20,483 bases of DNA from a virus, in the UHGV virus genome UHGV-0048975; one strand, 5' to 3'. Both the position numbers and the translations under genes were made by a program. Below are positions 678 through 13,934 of the stretch, piece after piece; positions within the stretch are counted from its first letter, which is position 1, and each line of letters starts with the position of its first letter. Under the pieces are notes generated by a model, which saw nothing but the letters and a program-made list of their open reading frames with translations, was not told the origin of the DNA and did not search any database.

Positions 678-1754
678 TCAGTGGTGGTTATTACGGGGTA
701 ATGCCAACCGCTGCCGCCACTTTGTCGCCACTTTGTCGCCACTTGGCAGCGTTGCCAGAGGATTGAAACGGAGCGCCGTTTCCAGATGATCCGGTGCCAG
801 ATGTGCGTAACGCATAGTCATTTTTATATCGTGGTGTCCGAGAATTTTTTGTAAGGCCAGAATGTTTCCACCCGACATCATGAAGTGCGCCGCAAACGTA
901 TGGCGCAGAACGTGTGTGAGTTGACCGCGAGGGAGCACGATAGACGTTTTTTCCATCACGGATAAAAATTGAAAATAGCAGTCTGTGAAGAAATTGAACC
1001 CATCAAGCGCCATGATCTCTTCGTAAAGCTCTTTACTGATAGGGATGCTTCTGTTTTTCTTCCCCTTCGTTCTGACAAAGGTAATTCGGTATTTGGTCAC
1101 CTGTGAGCGGGTAAGATTTACGGCTTCACGCCAGCGTGCGCCTGTGCTTAAGCATATCTTAACTACCAGTGCCAGAATTGGGTCCTGACGTTTGCAATCA
1201 GCCAGCAATTCAACAATCTGCTCATGGGTAAGCCATGCCATCTCTTTTTCTGCGATGGTGAATTTTCGCATGTTCTCCAGTGGGTTCGGATACGACCATT
1301 CGCCCAGACGGGATAGTTCGCTAAAAACACTACTTAGATAGCTTTGCTCCAGGTTAATGGTGACCGGGCTTGCTCCTTTCTTCCATTTCTCGCTGAAGTA
1401 GATCTCGCCTGTCAGGCGTTTATCTCGATAGTGGGCAAACATTTTAGAGGTGAGATCGGTTGCAAGAGGATTGCCCAGAGCGTCAACCATCAACAGCAAT
1501 TTGTCATAGACATGCTGCCCAGCTGTCAGAGATTTACCATGTAGTTTGAACCATAGCTCAACCACGTCTTTCAGTGTTCGACGATCCACTGATTCACCCA
1601 GCCAGGGCTTTGCTTCGGTTTCTTCCATCGTGTGGCGCTCAAAAGCCAGTGCTTCGCCTTTGGTGACGAATTGTTTACGCACACGACGCCCACTTCGTCC
1701 GGCGGGGTAACATTCGCAAAGCCATTTCCCAGTGGTGAGTTTTCGTACTGCCAT
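678..1754 (-). CDS. int: Tyrosine integrase (P2/186 Int family)
   Basis: Begins MAVRKLTTGKWLCECYPAGRSGRRVRKQFVTKGEA, the typical P2-family Int N-terminus; C-terminal HxxR...RYAHL catalytic region. Start placed at the ATG at 1754; the 410-aa track ORF has an implausible N-terminal extension. Confidence 0.9.
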   Translation of the reverse strand: MAVRKLTTGKWLCECYPAGRSGRRVRKQFVTKGEALAFERHTMEETEAKPWLGESVDRRTLKDVVELWFKLHGKSLTAGQHVYDKLLLMVDALGNPLATDLTSKMFAHYRDKRLTGEIYFSEKWKKGASPVTINLEQSYLSSVFSELSRLGEWSYPNPLENMRKFTIAEKEMAWLTHEQIVELLADCKRQDPILALVVKICLSTGARWREAVNLTRSQVTKYRITFVRTKGKKNRSIPISKELYEEIMALDGFNFFTDCYFQFLSVMEKTSIVLPRGQLTHVLRHTFAAHFMMSGGNILALQKILGHHDIKMTMRYAHLAPDHLETALRFNPLATLPSGDKVATKWRQRLALPRNNHH

Positions 1755-1942
1755 AAAAAATGCCCTCCAGTAGAGAGCATTTTCACTGTATGTATAACCA
1801 GTGTCAATGTATGAAATCCTACGACCATACATCTCACTGAAGCCATAATTAAGTTGGCTATTCTTTTTGCTATGTGAGCATGTAACTTTTGCGGTTAACC
1901 TGCGGCTCATTTTTATTTTAGACGCAGATATAAAAGCAAAAG

Positions 1943-2134
1943 TTATCGTGAGTTTTTAGTACAGATTTTTTTGGATTTACTAATAGTTCCATCATTGCAA
2001 ACGAATTTGCCATCTGAGGTACAGTGAGAAACACCTCCCTTTTTCCCTGAGCAGGGATAATTTCTAGCATAGGTAGTTAGTGGGTTTAATAACAAAGAAC
2101 ATGACAAAACCACAAAAAATACCTTACCAAGCAT
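1943..2134 (-). CDS. Small secreted or lipoprotein-like protein (63 aa, signal peptide plus 4 Cys), between repressor and int
   Basis: Hydrophobic N-terminus [23 protein letters not shown], then a Cys-containing mature part; strong RBS GGGAGG 5 nt upstream; starts 15 bp after the repressor stop, so probably co-transcribed in the lysogenic operon. Confidence 0.5.
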
Positions 2135-2149
2135 AGTTTCCTCCCGGTA

Positions 2150-2719
2150 CTATTTAACATACTTGACTGTTAAACTTATAATTTTACCAATTATTTCAAT
2201 GTCTTCTATCTTGCATTCGAAGGCTCTGTTTCCACCCTCGACGAAGATTCTTCCACCGGGTAAACGAGTAATGTCACGGATCGTTATTTCGCCATCAATA
2301 CTTATTACCCATTTACCATCACGTATATCATCAAATTCTTTATCACAAATAAATTCAGAATTGTTATCTGTGATGACAAAAGGTTTTTTAAACGTAGAGG
2401 GTAGAAATCCCTTATCAAAAATATAAAAACCGTCTTTCTGCAATGCTCCATCAGACAATAAATATTTTTCTACTTCTATAGTATTTGTATTTGCTGATGC
2501 TTGCTTTGAACCATGCCCTGTTGTTAGCCAATTAAGCGAGGTGCCCGTTTCAAGGGCGCACTGGATTACCCAATCTGCTGGAAAAATATCACGCATATAG
2601 CGCGTTGCCATGGTGCTCTTAGAAACACCTAAATGATCACATAGAGCCTGACGGGTACCGAACCCATATGCTTCAACTAAACGTTCTATGGCTTTCTTAC
2701 CGCCGCTATTGAAATCCAC
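2150..2719 (-). CDS. cI: Phage 186 CI-like immunity repressor (HTH N-terminal domain)
   Basis: Segment RLVEAYGFGTRQALCDHLGVSKSTMATRYMRD...CALETGTSLNWLTTGHG resembles the 186 CI N-terminal domain (from memory). Start taken as GTG at 2719 with GGAGGA just upstream; the track's longer ORF (to 2806) would cover the putative pR promoter. Confidence 0.7.
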   Translation of the reverse strand: MDFNSGGKKAIERLVEAYGFGTRQALCDHLGVSKSTMATRYMRDIFPADWVIQCALETGTSLNWLTTGHGSKQASANTNTIEVEKYLLSDGALQKDGFYIFDKGFLPSTFKKPFVITDNNSEFICDKEFDDIRDGKWVISIDGEITIRDITRLPGGRIFVEGGNRAFECKIEDIEIIGKIISLTVKYVK

Positions 2720-2746
2720 AAGTCCTCCAAAGAAATCCAAAATTCG

Positions 2747-2775
2747 TTGACAGATTCCAAAAGCGATCTTAAAGT
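2747..2775 (+). promoter_or_regulatory. Candidate rightward early promoter (pR/Pe-like): TTGACA, 17 bp, TAAAGT
   Basis: Perfect -35 hexamer at 2747-2752 and 4/6 -10 at 2770-2775 with 17-bp spacing, about 90 bp upstream of the cox/apl-like ATG. Confidence 0.35.
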
Positions 2776-2864
2776 TGAACCAGAAGTGTTCTTTTGGAGC
2801 CTTCACTACTAATCACGACAAACAACGGCTCGCCACAAGCCATATCTAGAAGGAATGTTGCCTT

Positions 2865-3068
2865 ATGACACCTAACATTTCAATTACTCTGAATACACCA
2901 CATGTCACAATCGAACGTTATAGCGAACTGACTGGCCTTTCTATTGATACGATTAACGACATGTTGGCTGATGGCCGACTACCTCGTCATCGTCTTCGTA
3001 AAGACAAAAAACGTGAAAAGGTAATGATTAACCTGGCTGCTCTGACTGTTGATGCTTTGTCTGCTTAA
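2865..3068 (+). CDS. Cox/Apl-like small DNA-binding protein (excision and switch regulator), putative
   Basis: First gene of the rightward operon, divergent from the repressor; 67 aa, basic C-terminus ([12 protein letters not shown]) and HTH-like segment. Assignment is mainly by position. Confidence 0.55.
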
Positions 3069-3132
3069 TAGACGTCTATTTTCGCAATAAGACGCTGAGT
3101 TCGATTTTGCGATAAGTTCGGAGTTGAAAACC

Positions 3133-3642
3133 ATGTTTGATTACCAAGTTTCCAAACATCCACATTTTGATGAAGCCTGTCGTGCATTCGCACTGCGCCA
3201 CAATCTGGTGCAACTGGCAGAACGTGCGGGCATGAATGTGCAGATTCTGCGGAACAAGCTGAACCCAGCTCAACCTCATTTATTAACCGCACCAGAAATC
3301 TGGCTGCTTACCGATCTGACTGAAGATTCAACGTTGGTAGATGGTTTTCTGGCACAGATTCATTGTCTGCCATGTGTACCGATTAATGAGGTAGCAAAAG
3401 AGAAACTGCCGCATTACGTCATGAGCGCAACTGCAGAGATCGGGCGTGTTGCAGCAGGTGCGGTATCTGGTGATGTAAAAACTAGTGCCGGTCGTCGTGA
3501 TGCTATCAGCAGCATTAACTCTGTAACACGACTGATGGCGCTGGCTGCTGTTTCATTGCAGGCCCGTTTACAGGCTAATCCTGCGATGGCGAGTGCAGTT
3601 GATACCGTGACTGGCCTCGGTGCTTCATTCGGTTTGCTGTGA
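3133..3642 (+). CDS. cII: Phage 186 CII-like transcriptional activator
   Basis: [45 protein letters not shown]...[24 protein letters not shown] matches my recollection of 186 CII; ATG at 3133 preceded by GGAG. Confidence 0.8.
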
Positions 3643-3649
3643 GGTGCTT

Positions 3650-3946
3650 ATGCTGACGAAAGAACCATCATTTGCATCGCTGCTGGTAAAACAAAGCCCG
3701 GCAATGCACTACGGTCACGGCTGGATCACGGGTGAGGATGGAAAACGCTGGCATCCATGTCATTCACAAGATGAATTGCTGTCTGAATTGACCACGAGGA
3801 AACGGAGAAAGTCCAAATGTATGCGGCAGAAAGTGAAGTGGTTTATCAGTTTCGTTACAGAGGGGAGAGTTATTCAGTACCTGAAGATGATTTGCTCTGT
3901 TGCTATCCGTCATTGTCGGGCGATGGCAGTTACTTTTTCACGTTAA
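3650..3946 (+). CDS. Hypothetical early protein; 3' extent uncertain (overlaps next ORF out of frame)
   Basis: ATG at 3650 preceded by GAGGTG; the first ~55 residues look protein-like, the remainder is Cys/Trp-rich and overlaps 3817-4041. Confidence 0.4.
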   Translation: MLTKEPSFASLLVKQSPAMHYGHGWITGEDGKRWHPCHSQDELLSELTTRKRRKSKCMRQKVKWFISFVTEGRVIQYLKMICSVAIRHCRAMAVTFSR

Positions 3947-4041
3947 AGGATGGGACGTTTTTACGGGGAGAGCAGGTTAAAGAGACGATACGAAAAAATG
4001 TATCTCCTCTTGAGCGTTACCGTAAGAACAAAGAACGATAG
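3817..4041 (+). CDS. Hypothetical early protein (74 aa)
   Basis: ATG at 3817 with GGAG 9 nt upstream; protein-like composition. Confidence 0.5.
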   Translation: MYAAESEVVYQFRYRGESYSVPEDDLLCCYPSLSGDGSYFFTLKDGTFLRGEQVKETIRKNVSPLERYRKNKER

Positions 4042-4063
4042 CTGCGTTTGGGGGATATGAAGT

Positions 4064-4405
4064 ATGGCAATTAATGGCGCTGCAGCAACTGTTCCATTAA
4101 GCCCCGGTGAACGCCTGAATGGACTTAATCACATTGCAGAGTTAAGGGCGAAAGTTTTTGGCCTGAATATTGAGTCAGAGCTTGAGCGGTTTATTAAAGA
4201 TATGCGTGATCCACGGGATATTAATTATGAACGAAATAAACGAGCACTGGCTGCTATATTCTTTATAGCAAAAATTCCAGCTGAACGTCATAGCATCAGC
4301 ATTAATGAGCTGACCACTGACGAAAAGCGGGAGTTGATTAAAGTAATGAATCATCTTCGTGCAGTGGTGAGCTTATTTCCCAGACGGCTAGCCATGCCGA
4401 ATTAA
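4064..4405 (+). CDS. Hypothetical early-operon protein (113 aa)
   Basis: ATG at 4064 with GGGGGA RBS; no recognisable motif. Confidence 0.6.
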   Translation: MAINGAAATVPLSPGERLNGLNHIAELRAKVFGLNIESELERFIKDMRDPRDINYERNKRALAAIFFIAKIPAERHSISINELTTDEKRELIKVMNHLRAVVSLFPRRLAMPN

Positions 4406-4472
4406 CCAATTAATGAAATTCATGGCGTAAACCCGCCGGGCATTCCTTTATCTAAATTCAGGAGAATTGATT

Positions 4473-4706
4473 ATGCGTAATATTGAAACCCTCTCGACTA
4501 AAACCGGACCGGATGACGCAGGACTTAATATTTTACTGACAGAGGCTCGTCTGGAAGAACGTCGGGCAAGAGCTGAAGCAATGGCAGCTCGCCTTGATAG
4601 CCTTGCGTGCCATATCACATCCCGCCAGCTAAACCACGTTGAAGCGGCTGAACTGCTGCGTGTGGCAGCTGAAGCAATCCAGAACGAAGCGCAGGAGATC
4701 CACTAA
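4473..4706 (+). CDS. Hypothetical early-operon protein (77 aa)
   Basis: ATG at 4473 preceded by AGGAG; the track ORF from 4467 starts at a TTG. Stop overlaps the next start (TAATG). Confidence 0.6.
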   Translation: MRNIETLSTKTGPDDAGLNILLTEARLEERRARAEAMAARLDSLACHITSRQLNHVEAAELLRVAAEAIQNEAQEIH

Positions 4707-4933
4707 TGGCTGATGCAATGGATCTCGTACAGCAGCGCGTTGAAGAAGAACGCCAGCGTCATATCCGTGCTGCCCGTGCCAAAACGCCGGGCGTGTCCCG
4801 CGTGCTTTGCATTGAGTGTGAAGCGCCAATTCCGCCAGCACGCCGCCGTGCCATTCCGGGTGTGCAGCTTTGCATTACCTGTCAGGAAATCGCAGAGCTG
4901 AAAGGCAAACATTACAACGGAGGTGCTGTATGA
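4706..4933 (+). CDS. TraR/DksA-family C4 zinc-finger protein
   Basis: CIECEAPIPPARRRAIPGVQLCITCQ is a CxxC-N17-CxxC zinc finger of the TraR/DksA type; translationally coupled to neighbours. Confidence 0.8.
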   Translation: MADAMDLVQQRVEEERQRHIRAARAKTPGVSRVLCIECEAPIPPARRRAIPGVQLCITCQEIAELKGKHYNGGAV

Positions 4934-5787
4934 GCACCATCCTGAAATGGGCGGGAAATAAAACCGCCATTATGTCCGAACTGAAAAAGCATCTTCCTGC
5001 TGGCCCGCGACTGGTTGAACCTTTCGCGGGTTCCTGTGCAGTGATGATGGAGACGGAGTACCCCAGCTATCTTGTTGCGGATATTAATCCTGATTTAATC
5101 AACCTCTATAAAAAGGTTGCTGCTGATTGTGAATCGTTTATATCTCGCGCCAGAGTTTTATTTGAGATCGCAAACAGGGGGGGGGCTTATTACAACATAA
5201 GGCAGGAGTTTAATTACTCAACTGAAATTACTGATTTCATGAAAGCGGTATATTTCCTGTATCTCAATCGTCACGGTTACCGTGGTTTATGTCGCTATAA
5301 CAAGAGCGGGCATTTCAACATTCCCTACGGTAATTATAAAAATCCGTATTTCCCTGAAAAAGAAATTCGCGCATTTGCAGAAAAAGCCCAGCGAGCAACG
5401 TTTATCTGCGCCAGCTTTGATGAAACGCTGGCGATGTTGAAGGCGGGGGATGTGGTGTATTGCGATCCGCCGTATGACGGTACGTTTTCCGGCTATCACA
5501 CTGATGGTTTCACTGAAGATGACCAGTATCACCTGGCATCCGTTCTTGAACATCGGTCATCAGAAGGACATCCGGTCATTGTTTCTAACAGTGATACATC
5601 CCTGATCCGTTCGCTGTATCGCAATTTTACTCACCACTATATCAAGGTAAAACGCAGCATCGGTGTGGCAGCTGGCGAGGGTAAATCAGCAACAGAAATC
5701 ATTGCTGTTTCCGGGCCGCGCTGCTGGGTGGGATTTGATTATTCGCGTGGCGTGGATAGTTCTGCCGTGTACGGAGTACGTGCATGA
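4930..5787 (+). CDS. dam: Orphan DNA adenine methyltransferase (Dam / D12-class N6-MTase)
   Basis: LKWAGNK N-terminal motif and DPPY catalytic motif; ATG at 4930 overlaps the upstream stop (ATGA), GGAGG 6 nt upstream; no restriction partner nearby. Confidence 0.9.
5177..5185 (+). repeat. Homopolymeric G9 tract inside the dam coding frame
   Basis: Nine consecutive G read directly (codons AGG GGG GGG in ANRGGAYY). Confidence 0.9.
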
Positions 5788-8198
5788 GCCATGCCGATAT
5801 GAACAACTGCTGCGGCTTTAACGAGGCTGCCGCAGCGTTCTCATGGAACAGCCCGAAAAAGGCCATTAACCCTTATCTGGACCCGGCGGAAGTTGCGCCG
5901 GTTTCTGCGCTTTCAAACCTGATCGCTCTGTACGCTGCCGATAACGAACAGGAACACCTGCGCCGCGAGGCACTGAGTGATCAGGTCTGGGAGCGTTATT
6001 TCTTTAATGAATCCCGTGATCCTGTCCAGCGCGAAATGGAGCAGGATAAGCTCATTAGTCGGGCAAAGCTGGCGCATGAGCAGCAGCGTTTTAATCCAGA
6101 TATGGTCATTCTGGCGGACGTCAATGCCCAGCCTTCCCATATCAGCAAGCCGCTGATGCAACGTATTGAATACTTCAGCAGCCTGGGCAGGCCAAAGGCT
6201 TATTCCCGCTATTTGCGTGAGACGATTAAGCCATGTTTGGAGCGACTGGAGCATGTACGCGACAGCCAGCTATCTGCATCTTTTCGTTTTATGGCAAGCC
6301 ATGTAGGGCTGGACGGCCTGCTGATTCTGCCTGAAATGAGTCAGGATCAGGTGAAACGCCTGTCTACTCTTGTCGCTGCGCATATGAGCATGTGTCTTGA
6401 TGCCGCTTGTGGTGATTTGTACGCCACCGATGATGTTAAGCCAGAAGAAATCCGCAAGACATGGGAAAAGGTGGCAGCAGAAACCCTGCGACTGGATGTT
6501 ATCCCGCCTGCGTTTGAGCAACTTCGTCGGAAAAGAAACCGCCGTAAACCCGTGCCCTATGAACTCATTCCGGGTTCGCTGGCGCGTATGTTGTGCGCCG
6601 ATTGGTGGTACCGGAAATTATGGAAGATGCGTTGCGAATGGCGGGAAGAGCAGTTGCGTGCTGTTTGCCTGGTCAGCAAAAAAGCATCTCCCTATGTCAG
6701 CTATGAAGCCGTGATGCATAAACGTGAGCAGCGCCGTAAGTCGCTGGAGTTTTTCCGTTCTCATGAACTGGTGAACGAAGACGGCGACACGCTGGACATG
6801 GAGGATGTGGTAAACGCCAGCAGCAGCAACCCGGCGCATCGCCGCAATGAGATGATGGCCTGTGTTAAAGGTCTGGAGCTTATCGCAGAAATGCGCAGTG
6901 ACTGTGCCGTTTTCTACACTATCACCTGTCCGTCGCGTTTCCATTCCACGCTCAATAACGGCAGACCAAACCCGACCTGGACAAACGCGACGGTAAGACA
7001 AAGCAGCGATTATCTGGTCGGCATGTTTGCTGCATTTCGTAAGGCTATGCACAAAGCCGGGTTGCGCTGGTATGGCGTGCGGGTGGCTGAACCGCATCAT
7101 GACGGCACAGTTCACTGGCACCTGTTGTGTTTCATGCGCAAAAAAGACCGCCGCGCCATTACTGCATTGTTGCGTAAGTTTGCCATCCGTGAAGACCGCG
7201 AGGAGCTGGGCAATAACACGGGGCCACGCTTTAAGTCTGAGCTGATAAACCCGCGCAAAGGTACGCCAACAAGCTACATCGCGAAATACATCAGTAAGAA
7301 CATTGACGGGCGTGGTCTGGCTGGCGAGATCAGCAAGGAAACGGGTAAATCCCTGCGTGATAACGCTGAATACGTTAATGCCTGGGCGTCTCTGCATCGT
7401 GTTCAGCAATTCCGCTTCTTTGGTATTCCGGGGCGTCAGGCTTACCGTGAACTTCGCTTGCTGGCTGGTCAGGCGGCAAGGCAACAGGGTGACAAAAAAG
7501 CAGGTGCGCCGGTACTGGATAACCCGCGTCTTGATGCCATTCTGGCTGCTGCTGATGCTGGTTGTTTTGCCACCTACATCATGAAGCAGGGCGGCGTACT
7601 GGTTCCCCGTAAATATCACCTCATCAGAACCGCTTATGAAATCAACGAAGAGCCGACCGCCTATGGCGATCACGGCATTCGTATTTATGGCATCTGGTCA
7701 CCCATTGCAGAGGGCAAGATCTGCACTCATGCAGTGAAGTGGAAAATGGTTCGTAAAGCCGTTGACGTTCAGGAGGCGGCAGCCGACCAGGGCGCTTGCG
7801 CCCCTTGGACTCGTGGCAATAACTGTCCCCTTGCTGAAAATTTGAACCAACAGGATAAAGATAAATCAGCTGATGGGGACACCAGAACGGACATTACCCG
7901 CATGGATGACAAGGAATTGCACGATTACCTGCACAGTATGAGCAAAAAAGAGCGCCGGGAACTGGCAGCAAGGTTACGCCTAGTTAAGCTGAAACGGCGT
8001 AAAGACTACAAACAGCGAATTACAGATCATCAGCGACAGCAGCTCGTCTATGAGCTGAAGTCCAGAGGATTTGATGGCAGCGAGAAAGAGGTCGATTTAC
8101 TCCTACGTGGTGGCAGTATTCCGTCAGGAGCAGGCCTGCGTATCTTCTATCGGAACCAGCGTTTGCAGGAAGATGATAAGTGGCGGAACCTGTATTAA
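5784..8198 (+). CDS. P2 gpA-like rolling-circle replication initiator
   Basis: 804 aa; HUH-type motif [10 protein letters not shown] and downstream YIAKYISK tyrosine motif; position after dam as in P2-like early operons; start overlaps dam stop (ATGA). Confidence 0.85.
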
Positions 8199-8877: not shown

Positions 8878-9561
8878 CTATGATTGAAGGGTGACTTTTT
8901 TTAACGTATCAAAAACGATTTTCGTAAACTCATTCTCATTTCTAACATCAATATAAGCAAGGCCGCTATTGGTGATCTTGAGCTTACCGGAATATTCTAA
9001 TGAATTAACAGAGCAAACAAGCCTGTCAATTCTTATTTTTTTACCCTCTAATTCTTCTTTATAATACTTCCTAAGATCATTGCTGCCAATTATTTGCATT
9101 TTAGCTGTGGCGTAATCAGAAACTCTAACCCTTGAAATATCAAGTTGTGTTAAATTGATATTTACACTTGAAGATATTTCATTAAGCCAGTCTATAGGGT
9201 TTATGTCAATTTCTTCCAAACTAACACCTAAGCCAAGATTTTTTACCAAAGCCTGCGAAAAAGGCTTTAAAGTTCTGGGTGGGTTAGTAATCTGCATTAC
9301 AGGAAGAGAGTCTAAAGCCACGCTAAAATTTGTGGTGCGATATTCGATTCTTTCAACGGTAGTTTCGCTTCCGTCAAAGCTTAATATTTTATCATGATAA
9401 ACAATACGCTCGACAAAGCGACCATTTGCAAAATCATGGCGTATTTTATCAAAAATGAACCCTTTCCCTTTATCCTCTGTAAAAGAATCAAGAGAAAGAC
9501 GTCTAACGGCTGTTTCAAACTCAAGCCGTATGTTTAACTTAAGCCATTTAACCTTTTTCAT
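8878..9561 (-). CDS. Hypothetical protein, third gene of three-gene cargo operon (227 aa)
   Basis: ATG at 9561 lies inside the 3' end of the upstream gene (14-nt overlap); AT-rich; no recognisable motif. Confidence 0.75.
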   Translation of the reverse strand: MKKVKWLKLNIRLEFETAVRRLSLDSFTEDKGKGFIFDKIRHDFANGRFVERIVYHDKILSFDGSETTVERIEYRTTNFSVALDSLPVMQITNPPRTLKPFSQALVKNLGLGVSLEEIDINPIDWLNEISSSVNINLTQLDISRVRVSDYATAKMQIIGSNDLRKYYKEELEGKKIRIDRLVCSVNSLEYSGKLKITNSGLAYIDVRNENEFTKIVFDTLKKVTLQS

Positions 9562-10627
9562 CTTCGTTCACCTCTGATCCTATTATTATATTATAGGCAT
9601 TTTCAGCGGCGGACTCAATTAATTCACTAATATGTTTTTTCTCTTGTGCCGTTGCCGCGCGAATGGTTACATTGAAACCGTCTTCTTTTTGATTGTTTAT
9701 ACCTTTAATTTGATAGGCAAAGTCACAGCATTTTTCTGAGTCTTTGAAAAATGCTTCGACGTTGATTCTGTCTCCAATTCCACTTGTCGGCTTTGAAGAC
9801 CATGCAATACGCCCGATATAATAACCTTTCTCATGTAGTTGAGAAAATATAGCTGAACTATTTACCCCTTCACCATTAAGGACGGCTTTCTTAACAAATC
9901 CGGTATCAATAGTTTCTTCCTTGTCTTCATCCTCACTAGCATCAGTACTGCGATTTAATTCGACTTTTGTTACGTCATCAGTCTCATAACCGCGTAGACC
10001 ATTCATTAATTCCTGAAAAAACTGACTTCGCAATGTAGGATCAGTTATTGCTAGTAATGATATTTCGAAGCGCTCGATAGGTTCGGACTTGATTTTAGAT
10101 AGCTCGTTTTGCAAGCTCTCAATAACTTTTTTTGCCTCGGGGTTTTGAGGCATACGTACTTCAACTTTGTCAGCTCCAGGGCGAAGTTCTATTATAACAT
10201 TCCGCTTGTCGATCTGACGTAATGCAGTTTTAGACAGGTCTATTTCTTCATATTTGTATTCTACTGTAAGCGAGCCATCTTTTTTAGCTACAATATTCAG
10301 GCTTTGACCTTTACTAGGGGAGCATGTTTTTTTTAGTGCTTCAGCAGCACTTTTTAATTCGGCCTGATTTGTTGAGGTTTGGAAGCTCACACTAGTAGTG
10401 CTTTCCCTTGGGTCATATGTTTTGACCAGTTTTTTTATGTGTTCTAATTCATTAAATCCGTGAGGAAGTTTGGATATTTCCTCGATTAGTATTTCCTTGT
10501 CGAGTTCTGGTGATAAAAACACACCTCGATTCAACAATAATTCATGCAACTTTGCAGCGGTTATCCTTTTATGATGTAATGCATCATAAATATTTTTATC
10601 AGTTGCGAAATATAGTTTTTTAGCCAT
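9548..10627 (-). CDS. Hypothetical protein, second gene of three-gene cargo operon (359 aa)
   Basis: Start overlaps the upstream stop (TAATG); acidic internal stretch; no Walker A or other known motif seen. Confidence 0.8.
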   Translation of the reverse strand: MAKKLYFATDKNIYDALHHKRITAAKLHELLLNRGVFLSPELDKEILIEEISKLPHGFNELEHIKKLVKTYDPRESTTSVSFQTSTNQAELKSAAEALKKTCSPSKGQSLNIVAKKDGSLTVEYKYEEIDLSKTALRQIDKRNVIIELRPGADKVEVRMPQNPEAKKVIESLQNELSKIKSEPIERFEISLLAITDPTLRSQFFQELMNGLRGYETDDVTKVELNRSTDASEDEDKEETIDTGFVKKAVLNGEGVNSSAIFSQLHEKGYYIGRIAWSSKPTSGIGDRINVEAFFKDSEKCCDFAYQIKGINNQKEDGFNVTIRAATAQEKKHISELIESAAENAYNIIIGSEVNEDEKG

Positions 10628-11628
10628 TATCGTTGCTCCATGCCGATTTGTTCAAGATTATATTCAACAACAATTTTGTCTGTCTTGTCGAAGTCAATTT
10701 TAAGAAAAAGTCTTTCATCCTCGCCTAAGAGCCAGTCTGTGCTGTATTTCTTTTTCGCTCTTTCAAAATGATGAATGGCATTTTCATTTGGGTGAATGTG
10801 ACAATGGCGTAATACGATTGGTTTACCTTCGGTTAATATCTGATAAGTTGATAACATATCAAAGAAGTAAACGAATTCGTCTACTGAATCCCCCGGTTGA
10901 TTGTAATAAACAACATATCCCTCAGGGTTTTTATCCCTGAGCCAACTGAAAGCCTCATGCTTTATTATAATGTATGGTGATGTTAATAATTCAATTGTTG
11001 CAGGTGTTGTCTGATTAATAGGGTGCTTTATTCTTGTTAGGGAAAGATCTGGATAATAATATGTGAACTTATCAGGTTGAGGAAGTTTGCCTGAACCAAT
11101 TAACTTAGTTATGTCAGAAGATATGTTTATCAAATCTGATATTTTATAAGGGTCAAGCAAATGTAGTTTGATGTTTGGAGGGCAATTTATAGATGAGTGA
11201 TCTAATTTTTTTGTAATATTCTCATAGAAGTCTTTATCATATAAATTATCATGGTTATATAAGAATAATAACCCTCTTACGTTATAACCTAAAGAATCAT
11301 CATGAACATATTTCAATCGCCATTCTTCACTGACATTTGCACACTCGGTAGCTAAAGCAAGCGATGTTAAAGCTCCCTCGACTATTTTTTTCCCAATAGT
11401 ACCTTCTGCATAGCTTTTGAGGTCTGTGTTGAGATAGACCATTTCCTCCTCATATGGATCTATGTAGAAAAATACAACATCGCTTGGATGTGTTTTCTTG
11501 GAATGAGCCTCTTGGCAACAATCCCAATTCATGTCCGCTCTAGCGGCACGATCCCATTTGAACACTGAGAAAATATCATCAGAAATCTTACCCGCGACTC
11601 GTTGTATAGCCGAAGTCTCTCCACCCAT
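10627..11628 (-). CDS. Hypothetical protein, first gene of three-gene cargo operon (333 aa); weak PD-(D/E)xK-like signature
   Basis: GGAG RBS 9 nt upstream of the ATG; possible nuclease-like pattern FFYIDP...MVYLNTDLK (tentative); AT-rich. Confidence 0.8.
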   Translation of the reverse strand: MGGETSAIQRVAGKISDDIFSVFKWDRAARADMNWDCCQEAHSKKTHPSDVVFFYIDPYEEEMVYLNTDLKSYAEGTIGKKIVEGALTSLALATECANVSEEWRLKYVHDDSLGYNVRGLLFLYNHDNLYDKDFYENITKKLDHSSINCPPNIKLHLLDPYKISDLINISSDITKLIGSGKLPQPDKFTYYYPDLSLTRIKHPINQTTPATIELLTSPYIIIKHEAFSWLRDKNPEGYVVYYNQPGDSVDEFVYFFDMLSTYQILTEGKPIVLRHCHIHPNENAIHHFERAKKKYSTDWLLGEDERLFLKIDFDKTDKIVVEYNLEQIGMEQR

Positions 11629-12188: not shown

Positions 12189-13046
12189 ATGTTTAGTGAT
12201 AAGCAAAAGCAACAAATAGGTAATAATTCGTATGCAATTCAAGCTGGAAATAATGTAAATGTTTCAGGGATGTCGTTTTCCGAGGTTAGAGAACTATTCA
12301 ACATTCTCTTCGAAAATCAGTTTCCAAAATTGAAAGATGTTGCTTATGCTGCAGCTCAAGAGAATGCAAAAGATTTTGAAGAGCGTGTCGTTTCGGATTT
12401 AACAAAAAACGTTGATAGATTGATTATTGATAAATTTTGCGATCCGGACGTTCAGGCTACATTGACTGAGGCATTAAAGTCATCAGCCAGGAAGGGAAAG
12501 AAAGCTAATATGGATGTGCTTTCTCAGTTGTTAGTTGAACGAGTCTCCAATAACAATGACGATTTTAGAGATATAGTTTTAACGGAGGCAGTTACCGTCG
12601 TTCCCAAGTTAACACAGCAACAAATATCACTTATAACGATAGTTTTTCTTCTCAAGAATGTTGAGATCAAAGACCCTGTTAATGGTGTTCGATTGGATTT
12701 GTTGGAGCACAATTTTAGAAACTTTGAATCAATGTATACTAATGGGTTTAATTTGTCTCAAGCCCAGATATATCACATTCAATATGCAGGGGCTTGTTCA
12801 TGGAATACTTTTTTAGGGATGGATGTTGAAGACTATTTTATGAGTAAATATCCGACTGATATAAAAGATAAGAGTGCATATATTTCAAATCTTAAGTTAG
12901 TTGCCCCTCATGTGTCTGCATTTTTAGAAAAATTTTCAAAGAGCAACTATCAAGGAATTGAATTAACAAGTGTAGGGCAAGCAATTGCTCTGGCTGTTTT
13001 TTCAAGATACGTAGGAAGATTGGATTATAATATTTGGTTAAAGTAG
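12189..13046 (+). CDS. Hypothetical cargo protein (285 aa), partner of the small membrane protein
   Basis: AAGGAGGA RBS immediately after the upstream stop; AT-rich; N-terminus KQQIGNNSYAIQAGNNVNV parallels SQSVGDNSTAVQARGDIKI in the upstream protein. Confidence 0.8.
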   Translation: MFSDKQKQQIGNNSYAIQAGNNVNVSGMSFSEVRELFNILFENQFPKLKDVAYAAAQENAKDFEERVVSDLTKNVDRLIIDKFCDPDVQATLTEALKSSARKGKKANMDVLSQLLVERVSNNNDDFRDIVLTEAVTVVPKLTQQQISLITIVFLLKNVEIKDPVNGVRLDLLEHNFRNFESMYTNGFNLSQAQIYHIQYAGACSWNTFLGMDVEDYFMSKYPTDIKDKSAYISNLKLVAPHVSAFLEKFSKSNYQGIELTSVGQAIALAVFSRYVGRLDYNIWLK

Positions 13047-13639: not shown

Positions 13640-13934
13640 TGGTTACACCCTGAACGTGGTGATTGAGGATTTCAGCGGCGACCAGAATCTGCTGATGGCC
13701 CCGGTTTTGCTGTGGCTGCGGGATAACCAGCCCGATGCCATCAATAACCCGGCGTTACGGGAAAAACTATTTACCTTTGAGGTGGATATTCTGCGCAACG
13801 ATGTCTGTGATATCAGCCTTAACCTGCAACTGACGGAACGTGTGCTGGTCAGCACTGACGGCAGTGTGTCGAGCGTTGAAGCGGTAGCAGAACCCGATGA
13901 ACCTGAAGAAATGTGGACGGTGAAACGTGGCTGA
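13640..13934 (+). pseudogene. Tail completion protein R gene remnant (3' part; P2 gpR-like)
   Basis: YTLNVVIEDFSGDQNLLMAPVLLWLRDNQPD...LNLQLTERVLVS resembles P2 gpR; the upstream part of the track ORF is antisense to the portal remnant, so the N-terminus is missing. Boundary approximate. Confidence 0.6.

What the first reader, a model, noticed from the sequence alone, without database searches (positions are those of the whole stretch)
5177..5185. In-frame G9 homopolymer inside the prophage dam gene: possible phase-variable methyltransferase
Nine consecutive G occupy codons 83-85 of the orphan Dam gene (ANRGGAYY). Homopolymer tracts of this length are rare in enterobacterial coding sequence and are the classic substrate for slipped-strand mispairing; a +1 or -1 slip would truncate the enzyme upstream of the DPPY catalytic motif. 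Phase-variable DNA methyltransferases are known for type III mod genes; a phage-borne Dam switching by a poly-G tract would be unusual and could modulate host gene expression epigenetically or protect the phage from restriction.
Basis: partly seen in the sequence, partly recalled or inferred. Interest (0 to 1): 0.65.

Follow-up and report, generated by a model that had tools for sequence, protein, structure and literature searches.

The report
Accidental G9 run in prophage dam
The nine-G run is real, but it is a rare, recently arisen spelling variant of an ordinary prophage Dam methylase gene that occasionally suffers frameshifts, not an evolved on/off switch.

Summary
The G9 run at 5177-5185 is real. 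It lies in frame in a 285-aa D12-class Dam gene (4930-5787) of a 186/P2-like prophage inserted beside rcdA. A -1 or +1 slip would truncate the protein at 89 or 94 aa, far upstream of DPPY (aa 179).

The tract is not a conserved feature. Nearly all orthologues read AAC AGG GAG GTG GCT (N-R-E-V-A). That includes 126 loci from GTDB species genomes and IMG/VR, and more than 1,200 complete E. coli genomes. Seven complete genomes carry the intermediate AGGGGGGTGG, and only three carry G9. The run therefore arose by two point substitutions (E84G, V85G) in one very young prophage lineage.

Length variants do exist on an otherwise identical backbone, and I read G8 and G10 at DNA level. They make up about 1-2% of roughly 300 assemblies. 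The G6 allele shows about 0.5% and the interrupted allele 0%, which is the gradient expected from ordinary run-length-dependent indels or sequencing errors.

The gene appears to sit in the CI-repressed early operon. Its presumed GATC target is already methylated by host Dam, and this copy of the prophage is defective.

Verdict: a mutation-prone accidental homopolymer, not a demonstrated phase-variable methyltransferase. Interest is low.

The parts
5177..5185 (+). G9 homopolymer (codon 83 pos 2-3, codons 84-85, codon 86 pos 1). It is the derived allele AGG GGG GGG G of the ancestral AGG GAG GTG G.
   Evidence: sequence; only G/C run of 6 or more in the window; ancestral and intermediate alleles in relatives
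4930..5787 (+). dam, an orphan D12-class (alpha-group) N6-adenine DNA methyltransferase of 285 aa. PFAGS is at aa 31 and DPPY at aa 179. RefSeq protein WP_000104169.1.
   Evidence: PF02086, E=3.7e-76, full length; E. coli Dam structures 2G1P/4GOL, E~1.6e-73; annotation; motif positions
5198..5200 (+). TAA stop reached after a -1 slip (G8), giving an 89-aa product ...NRGGLITT
   Evidence: The G8 allele was read in L166/L181 and L183.
5211..5213 (+). TAA stop reached after a +1 slip (G10), giving a 94-aa product ...[13 protein letters not shown]
   Evidence: The G10 allele was read in L184.
4706..4933 (+). TraR/DksA-type zinc-finger gene. Its TGA overlaps the dam ATG (ATGA at 4930-4933).
5784..8198 (+). 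Replication initiator gene A (Phage_GPA). Its ATG overlaps the dam TGA (ATGA at 5784-5787), and a GGAG lies 7 nt upstream.
2747..2775 (+). pR-like early promoter candidate (TTGACA-17-TAAAGT). It is the only + strand sigma-70-like site between cI and gene A. Consensus match only.

Best explanation
The G9 run is an accidental, recently created homopolymer inside an ordinary prophage Dam gene.

How it arose. The ancestral sequence at this spot is already G-rich, AAC AGG GAG GTG GCT (N-R-E-V-A). It lies in a poorly conserved stretch of the DNA-binding half of Dam. An A>G change (E84G) gave AGGGGGGTGG, and a T>G change (V85G) then gave AGGGGGGGGG. Both steps survive as living alleles.

What it does. 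The enzyme stays full length and is presumably active. Like any long G run, the tract is an indel hot spot. Replication slippage occasionally produces G8 or G10, and these truncate Dam at 89 or 94 aa. They also end translation about 570-585 nt before the translationally overlapped replication gene A. These events are rare loss-of-function mutations of a gene that is probably silent in the lysogen. They are not a selected reversible switch.

Shown here: the tract, the reading frame, the two-step origin, the rarity of the allele, the low-frequency G8/G10 variants, and the operon layout.

Inferred: slippage as the cause of the variants (rather than sequencing error), silence of the gene in lysogens, GATC specificity, and any polarity on gene A.
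For: Origin by substitution:
- 126 related loci (GTDB species genomes and IMG/VR) align at the site. 55+12+8 and most others read AGGGAGGT[G/A]G, one reads AGGGGGGTGG, and none has G9. More distant relatives have unrelated codons and indels there.
- In 5,426 complete E. coli genomes the gene occurs in 1,238.
- The 86-nt query around the tract is matched exactly by 3 records only, with one mismatch by 7, and with 2 or more mismatches by the rest.
- NCTC11023, one of the 7, reads AACAGGGGGGTGGCTT. Those 7 differ from the window's dam by exactly one base in 858.

Young single lineage:
- G9-bearing prophages are 99.87-100% identical to the window over up to 13.6 kb.
- L178 has identical DNA across window 1000-7500, but a different host flank and different hotspot cargo.

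Low-level length polymorphism. Exact-product look-ups gave the following.

| Product | Contigs |
|---|---|
| G9 protein | 293 |
| G8 product | 2 |
| 94-aa product (G10, or +1G in other alleles) | 5 |
| 93-aa product | 1 |
| G11, G12 and in-frame G6 products | 0 |
| RGV (G6) allele protein | 366 |
| G5 product of the RGV allele | 1 |
| REV allele protein | 885 |
| five possible REV frameshift products | 0 |

- DNA read directly: G8 in L166/L181 and L183, and G10 in L184. All have 0 other mismatches to the window.
- One 94-aa case (L174) is G7TGG on the G6 backbone.
- There is no exact G8 or G10 allele in complete E. coli genomes.
- Fisher tests: G9 vs interrupted allele p=0.016 to 6e-5; G9 vs G6 allele not significant.

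Expected rate:
- In mismatch-repair-defective E. coli, 95 indels fell in four 8-bp G.C runs over about 250,000 generations, or roughly 1e-4 per run per generation.
- Indel rate rises exponentially with run length (PMC8510543).
- With repair intact the rate should be about two orders of magnitude lower. That factor is my recollection, not checked here.

Context:
- ATGA overlaps with traR and gene A.
- The only + strand promoter-like site is upstream of the apl/cII homologues.
- Gene order int-cI / apl-cII-fil-...-traR-dam-A matches phage 186.
Against: - G8 and G10 alleles do exist on an identical backbone, so the tract is more changeable than the rest of the gene. A real, even useful, ON/OFF heterogeneity within populations cannot be excluded from consensus assemblies.
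- Truncated products are invisible in NCBI protein sets, because PGAP calls them pseudogenes. The 1-2% off-length fraction is therefore a lower bound.
- The two G8 records (an ENA metagenome assembly of SAMEA3664607 and Logan ERR1136809) may come from the same sample.
- I could not see reads, sequencing platforms, transcription data or methylation data.
- Silence in the lysogen and GATC specificity are inferred from homology and layout, not measured.
Confidence: 0.75

Rival explanations
1. A genuine, if nascent, contingency locus. Slipped-strand mispairing at G9 reversibly switches the phage Dam ON and OFF. The induced phage population then contains methylating and non-methylating variants. 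ON would protect against GATC-cutting restriction. OFF would avoid methylation-dependent restriction or Dam-triggered retron/abortive-infection systems.
For: - G9 is longer than the 8-bp G.C runs that are already extreme indel hot spots in E. coli (PMC8510543).
- Both -1 and +1 alleles were read at DNA level on an otherwise identical backbone.
- The off-length fraction is higher than for the interrupted allele.
- Overexpressed Dam, including E. coli, Salmonella and P1 Dam, triggers the Sen2 retron toxin by methylating msDNA. Phage Dam is viewed as anti-restriction (bioRxiv 10.1101/2020.06.22.160242). Both states could therefore in principle be advantageous.
Against: - The tract is absent from essentially all orthologues and derives from two recent substitutions.
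- About 98% of assemblies have exactly nine G, and no G11 or G12 product is on record.
- The difference from the G6 allele is not significant.
- The expected rate in repair-proficient E. coli is at or below the lower bound of phase-variation rates.
- Reversibility, rate and selection of both states are the defining criteria (PMC11868660). None of them is shown.
- The gene is probably not expressed in the lysogen, and this prophage copy is defective.
Confidence: 0.1
2. All apparent length variation (G8, G10) is homopolymer sequencing or assembly error. Biologically the tract is a stable G9.
For: - Variants are seen only in Logan and ENA automatic assemblies, never in 5,426 complete genomes.
- The graded 0 / 0.5 / 1-2% pattern with run length is also what homopolymer error would give.
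- Two of the G8 records may be the same sample.
Against: - Consensus contigs need a majority of reads.
- G10 was found in a contig shared by two samples, with two further similar places.
- G8 and G10 both occur with perfect flanks.
- Only three complete genomes carry G9, so zero variants among them is uninformative.
Confidence: 0.12
3. The G9 itself is an artefact, with poly-G miscalls converting AGGGAGGTGG or AGGGGGGTGG into G9.
For: Only 3 of 5,426 complete genomes show it, and two of those come from one study.
Against: - The exact protein is on 293 contigs from NCBI, JGI/IMG, Logan and ENA, and has an old RefSeq identifier.
- G9 was read in eight independent loci from five collections.
- It occurs with two different cargo modules and host flanks.
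Confidence: 0.02

Closest known systems
Dam methylase of 186/P2-like prophages (the 285-aa 'retron Ec67 DNA adenine methylase' type; Fels-2 / RE2010 / Cartapus-type phages)
   Same: - Same family, length and position (traR - dam - gene A).
- 97% or more nucleotide identity to dam of Escherichia phage Cartapus, Salmonella phage RE2010 and Klebsiella phage KP12.
- Cluster members are named 'retron EC67 DNA adenine methylase' by their sources.
- Strong match to E. coli Dam structures.
   Different: Only residues 84-85 differ (G-G instead of E-V). At DNA level this fuses three short G runs into G9. No phage record in the collection carries this allele; the best hit is 97.7%.
Phase-variable DNA methyltransferases (phasevarions: type III mod and type I hsd genes with simple-sequence repeats in Haemophilus, Neisseria, Helicobacter and others)
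   Same: A repeat tract inside a methyltransferase ORF whose length change shifts the frame. ON and OFF length alleles both exist in nature.
   Different: - Here the methylase is an orphan Dam, not part of a restriction-modification system.
- The repeat is not conserved among orthologues.
- One length dominates (about 98%).
- The host has intact mismatch repair and its own Dam for the same presumed site.
- The gene is in a phage early operon.
- The review PMC11868660 states that Dam-based epigenetic switches do not involve phase-variable expression of Dam itself.
'Accidental' mutation-prone homopolymers (for example the siaD poly-C tract of N. meningitidis, and M. tuberculosis homopolymer indels, as discussed in PMC11868660)
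   Same: A homopolymer in a coding region gives occasional frameshift loss of function at rates above the base-substitution rate. There is no evidence of evolved hypermutability or reversibility.
   Different: Those cases have documented phenotypes under selection. Here no phenotype is known.
8-bp G.C runs in the E. coli leuP/Q/V/T tRNA genes
   Same: Long G.C runs in E. coli behave as extreme indel hot spots. 95 of 117 tRNA-gene indels in repair-defective lines fell in them (PMC8510543).
   Different: Those runs are conserved structural elements of tRNAs. The dam run is a lineage-specific coding polymorphism one base longer.

Membership tests
D12-class (alpha-group) Dam N6-adenine DNA methyltransferase | Full-length match to the family profile | tested here: met
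   PF02086, E=3.7e-76, profile positions 1-253 of 253. E. coli Dam structures 2G1P/4GOL, E~1.6e-73 over residues 4-263.
D12-class (alpha-group) Dam N6-adenine DNA methyltransferase | AdoMet-binding FxGxG-type motif N-terminal and catalytic DPPY C-terminal, with the target-recognition region between them | tested here: met
   PFAGS at aa 31 and DPPY at aa 179. The G-tract codons 83-86 lie between them.
D12-class (alpha-group) Dam N6-adenine DNA methyltransferase | Methylates GATC | not testable with these tools
   Inferred from close homology to E. coli Dam, and from my recollection that the retron-Ec67 Dam complements dam mutants. Not measured here.
D12-class (alpha-group) Dam N6-adenine DNA methyltransferase | Orphan (no cognate restriction enzyme adjacent) | tested here: met
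   The neighbours are TraR/DksA and Phage_GPA.
Simple-sequence-repeat phase-variable locus (criteria of PMC11868660) | Expression state set by genetic variation at a single locus (repeat length changes the frame) | tested here: met
   G8 gives 89 aa, G9 gives 285 aa and G10 gives 94 aa. G8 and G10 alleles were read on an identical backbone.
Simple-sequence-repeat phase-variable locus (criteria of PMC11868660) | Reversible switching, both directions observed without selection | not testable with these tools
   This needs clonal passage or deep read data. Only consensus assemblies were available.
Simple-sequence-repeat phase-variable locus (criteria of PMC11868660) | High switching rate (variants detectable in small unselected populations; 100-10,000 times the basal rate) | tested here: inconclusive
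   - Across assemblies only about 1-2% are off-length (3-7 of about 300), against 0.5% for the G6 allele and 0 of 885 for the interrupted allele.
- The literature-based estimate for a G8 run is about 1e-4 per generation only without mismatch repair.
- No within-culture measurement was possible.
Simple-sequence-repeat phase-variable locus (criteria of PMC11868660) | Evolved localised hypermutability: the repeat is maintained among orthologues or strains, with a spectrum of lengths | tested here: not met
   - The tract is interrupted (AGGGAGGTGG) in essentially all of 126 related loci and about 1,230 E. coli genomes.
- G9 is in 3 of 5,426 complete genomes.
- No G11 or G12 product is on record.
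Simple-sequence-repeat phase-variable locus (criteria of PMC11868660) | Selection for both ON and OFF states | not tested
   There is only a hypothetical rationale: anti-restriction versus Dam-triggered retron toxicity.
Phasevarion (phase-variable methyltransferase controlling a regulon) | The methyltransferase belongs to a type I or III restriction-modification system, and its methylation pattern is otherwise absent from the cell | tested here: not met
   This is an orphan Dam with no R or S genes. By inference its GATC target is already methylated by the chromosomal Dam of E. coli.
Phasevarion (phase-variable methyltransferase controlling a regulon) | Expressed in the growing cell, so that switching changes host gene expression | not testable with these tools
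   - The layout places dam inside the early lytic operon downstream of the pR-like promoter, opposite cI.
- No transcription data were available.
- A different prophage Dam homologue in E. coli EC958 was reported untranscribed in the lysogen (PMC4659465). Orthology to this gene was not established.

The most novel reading that the evidence does not exclude
The G9 allele is a newly born contingency locus in a temperate phage. Slippage during host or phage replication yields a mixed ON/OFF Dam population, and each state is favoured in different hosts. ON would protect against GATC-specific restriction. OFF would evade methyl-dependent restriction or Dam-sensing retron/abortive-infection systems. 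This could explain why this very young lineage is found in several unrelated E. coli backgrounds.
Probability: 0.06. Interest if true: 0.55.

Novelty: already known. Interest (0 to 1): 0.17.

Why it matters
As it stands it matters little. It is a rare missense allele of a well-known prophage Dam that happens to create a frameshift-prone run.

It is a tidy natural example of how a homopolymer is born. Two substitutions in an already G-rich codon string made the run, and both intermediates are still circulating. Indel load then scales with run length (G3 < G6 < G9) in public assemblies.

It also carries a practical warning for annotation pipelines. Split or 'pseudogene' dam calls in this prophage lineage will cluster at this tract.

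Only if reversible high-rate switching and a phenotype for both states were shown would it become a first case of a phase-variable phage Dam in an enterobacterium.

Tried and rejected
I got round this by looking up the 182-aa downstream ORF product that is also encoded in the window. That look-up exposed G8, G10 and G7TGG alleles.
2. Counting the 94-aa product as 'G10' was rejected. The same peptide arises from +1G in the G6 and interrupted alleles, and L174 proved to be G7TGG.
3. The 546 contigs with the 182-aa C-terminal fragment are mostly not tract frameshifts. They are Shigella and E. coli prophage remnants in which an IS3-family element replaced the 5' half of dam, and the tract there is the interrupted AGGGAGGTGG.
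4. The pattern scan GCAAACAGGGGGGG N{0,4} CTTATTACAACA in IMG/VR and JGI metagenomes found only G9, in three loci.
5. Lee et al. 2012, the source for run-length indel rates in wild-type E. coli, is not in the held library. The wild-type rate is therefore extrapolated.
6. I checked whether the EC958 prophage Dam homologue reported as untranscribed is this gene. The P2-like prophage at serS in EC958 has no dam, so orthology is unestablished and the paper serves only as an analogy.
7. Programmed frameshifting or a second product was rejected. Both alternative frames stop within 4-9 codons.
8. No ORF or feature on the minus strand overlaps the tract.

Full report
**1.

Window 5177-5185 is nine consecutive G, bounded by A5176 and C5186. 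It is the only G or C run of six or more in the 20,483-bp window. Mononucleotide and first-order Markov expectations for a G/C run of nine or more in a window of this size are 0.04-0.06.

The run is in frame in an ORF with ATG at 4930 and TGA at 5785-5787. The 285-aa product matches Pfam PF02086 (D12-class N6-adenine methyltransferase) over the whole profile (E=3.7e-76). It also matches the solved E. coli Dam structures (2G1P and 4GOL, E about 1.6e-73). The AdoMet motif PFAGS is at residue 31 and DPPY at 179. The tract spans codons 83-86, A-N-R-G-G-A.

Removing one G gives an 89-aa product ending ...NRGGLITT (stop 5198-5200). Adding one gives a 94-aa product ending ...[13 protein letters not shown] (stop 5211-5213).

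**2. Context**

The gene sits in a 186/P2-like prophage integrated next to rcdA. The gene order is:
- integrase, YdcA-like gene and CI repressor on one strand;
- on the other strand an apl-sized ORF, CII (PF06892), Fil, DUF5347, DUF2732, TraR/DksA, dam, and replication gene A (PF05840).

The traR stop and dam start overlap as ATGA (4930-4933). The dam stop and gene A start overlap as ATGA (5784-5787). The only + strand sigma-70-like site between cI and gene A is TTGACA-17-TAAAGT at 2747-2775, which is a consensus match only.

So dam looks like an internal gene of the early lytic operon. In phage 186 that operon is repressed by CI in lysogens. This is established knowledge of 186, applied here by inference. 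There is no restriction gene nearby, so the methylase is an orphan.

**3. What relatives have at this position**

I collected 160 loci encoding relatives from GTDB species genomes and IMG/VR and aligned the site in the 126 that aligned by blastn.
- The dominant sequences are AAC AGG GAG GTG GCT (55 loci), the same core with a variant left flank (12), and ...GAG GTA GCT (8).
- One locus reads AGG GGG GTG GCT. None has G9.
- More distant relatives have unrelated codons and indels here. In the alignment to E. coli Dam a gap falls two residues before the tract. This is a poorly conserved stretch between the two catalytic motifs.

Among 5,426 complete E. coli genomes the gene is present in 1,238. 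An 86-nt query centred on the tract is matched exactly by three records only: Z1322HEC0001, Z1323HEC0009 and HSP425. Seven records match with one mismatch, and all others have two or more.

The seven are the same records that differ from the window's dam at one base in 858. One of them, NCTC11023, reads AACAGGGGGGTGGCTT.

The run was therefore built by two substitutions: GAG>GGG (E84G), then GTG>GGG (V85G). The starting string already had eight G in ten bases. Extension of runs by substitution at their ends is a known polymerase bias. That is my inference and was not tested.

**4. Age and spread of the G9 allele**

G9-bearing prophages are 99.87-100% identical to the window over up to 13.6 kb. 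One contig (L178) is identical across window 1000-7500, including every base of dam. Its chromosomal flank, however, differs by about 3%, and it carries a different cargo gene (AIPR) in the hotspot after gene A.

The lineage is therefore very young, yet it is present in different hosts and has undergone at least one cargo swap, always with nine G. The exact protein is on record for 293 contigs and has a RefSeq identifier, WP_000104169.1. The tract is not an artefact of one assembly.

**5. Does the length vary?**

I looked up the exact predicted products of length variants in the 15-billion-protein collection.

| Allele or product | Contigs |
|---|---|
| G9 full-length protein | 293 |
| G8 product | 2 |
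| 94-aa product | 5 |
| 93-aa product | 1 |
| G11 and G12 products, in-frame G6 deletion | 0 |
| Intermediate allele (RGV, G6) full length | 366 |
| RGV -1G product | 1 |
| Interrupted allele (REV) on the same backbone | 885 |
| Five possible REV frameshift products | 0 |

The 94-aa peptide is ambiguous, because +1G in any of the three alleles gives the same peptide.

To see DNA, I looked up the 182-aa downstream ORF product that gene callers emit when dam is split. This returned:
- G8 in an ENA metagenome scaffold (L166/L181) and in Logan ERR1136809 (L183);
- G10 in Logan SRR35889176 (L184; the contig is shared by two samples, with two similar places not shown);
- G7TGG on the intermediate backbone (L174).

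The G8 and G10 contigs have no other difference from the window. Synthetic G8 and G10 queries have no exact match in complete E. coli genomes. Pattern scans of IMG/VR and JGI metagenomes found only G9.

Off-length alleles therefore make up 3-7 of about 300 assemblies of the G9 lineage (1-2%). The G6 allele shows about 0.5% and the interrupted allele none. G9 versus interrupted is significant (p=0.016 to 6e-5). G9 versus G6 is not.

Three caveats apply:
- NCBI's pipeline hides frameshifted genes as pseudogenes, so the fraction is a lower bound.
- The two G8 records may come from one sample.
- Homopolymer sequencing error would give the same gradient.

**6. Interpretation**

The review by Bayliss, Clark and van der Woude (PMC11868660) sets three criteria for phase variation: switching at a single locus, reversibility, and a minimum switching rate detectable without selection. 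It explicitly sets aside 'accidental' mutation-prone tracts and homopolymer indels of lower rate and unproven reversibility.

Only the first criterion is met here.
- The tract is not maintained among orthologues.
- One length dominates.
- The host has mismatch repair.

In repair-defective E. coli, four 8-bp G.C runs took 95 indels in about 250,000 generations, or roughly 1e-4 per run per generation. Indel rate rises exponentially with run length (PMC8510543). With repair intact I would expect 1e-6 to 1e-5 for G9. This is an extrapolation, because the primary wild-type data were not available. That range is at or below the floor of phase-variation rates, and it is compatible with a 1-2% off-length fraction accumulating in a young lineage.

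Functionally, a host-epigenetic role is unlikely.
- The gene is probably silent in lysogens.
- E. coli already methylates GATC.
- The review notes that Dam-dependent switches do not work through variable Dam expression.

In this window the prophage has also lost about 7 kb of head and lysis genes. Protection of phage DNA therefore cannot be selected in this copy.

**7. What remains open**

Dam can be both anti-restriction and a trigger of retron toxin systems, so a benefit of OFF variants is conceivable. A frameshift would also stop ribosomes about 570-585 nt upstream of the overlapped gene A start. Gene A has its own GGAG 7 nt upstream, so any polarity is uncertain.

I put about 6-10% on a genuinely useful switch. 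About 12% goes to the length variants being purely technical. About 75% goes to an accidental, mutation-prone homopolymer in a known gene.

**8. Verdict**

The gene belongs to the known 186/P2-like prophage Dam family. Novelty: already known. Interest: low.

Noticed in passing
window 13642-13649 (junction); compare L161 24721-31778: Relative to the otherwise near-identical prophages in HSP425 and Z1322HEC0001, the window lacks about 7.06 kb. The missing DNA covers most of the portal gene, both terminase subunits, scaffold, major capsid, head completion, tail X, holin, lysozyme, LysB/LysC and the start of a tail gene. The two alignment blocks overlap by 8 bp, suggesting a microhomology-mediated deletion. 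The prophage in this window is therefore defective.
   Followed up: partly
window 8878-11628 (- strand) and 12189-13046 (+): Three co-oriented genes in the P2-type cargo hotspot between gene A/DinI and the portal gene match PADLOC models Hp3, Hp2 and Hp1 end to end (E 1e-157 to 1e-248). Precomputed Pfam hits are PDDEXK_GAPS4 and GAPS4b_N. This is a known candidate anti-phage system, which I take to be the '3HP' system of P2 hotspots (from memory). A Vpar_1526-family gene follows. A sister prophage (L178) carries an AIPR abortive-infection gene there instead.
   Followed up: partly
L162 = NZ_CP148585.1 (and NZ_CP148400.1): These 55-kb records are deposited as circular plasmids (pZ1322HEC0001-3). 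They consist of chromosomal genes (gsiD...rcdA) plus this prophage, ending in a truncated tail gene. They look like mislabelled or misassembled chromosomal fragments.
   Followed up: no
L167-L173, L175 (Shigella boydii Sb227 CP000036.1 and others): In many Shigella and E. coli genomes the 5' half of this dam is replaced by an IS3-family element (rve, HTH_Tnp_1), leaving a 182-aa C-terminal ORF. That fragment is on record for 546 contigs. Loss of this Dam by IS insertion is far commoner than loss at the G tract.
   Followed up: partly
L174 (Logan SRR30543739) and P0031: The intermediate allele AGGGGGGTGG (G6) also shows +/-1 variants: G7TGG at DNA level, and a G5 product on one contig. Indel-proneness therefore predates the G9 allele and scales with run length.
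   Followed up: yes
L161 24139-25170 (HSP425): The portal gene of the G9-bearing prophage in HSP425 is annotated as a pseudogene with an internal stop. That copy too may be decaying.
   Followed up: no
window 4930-4933 and 5784-5787: ATGA start/stop overlaps link traR-dam and dam-gene A, implying translational coupling along the early operon.
   Followed up: partly
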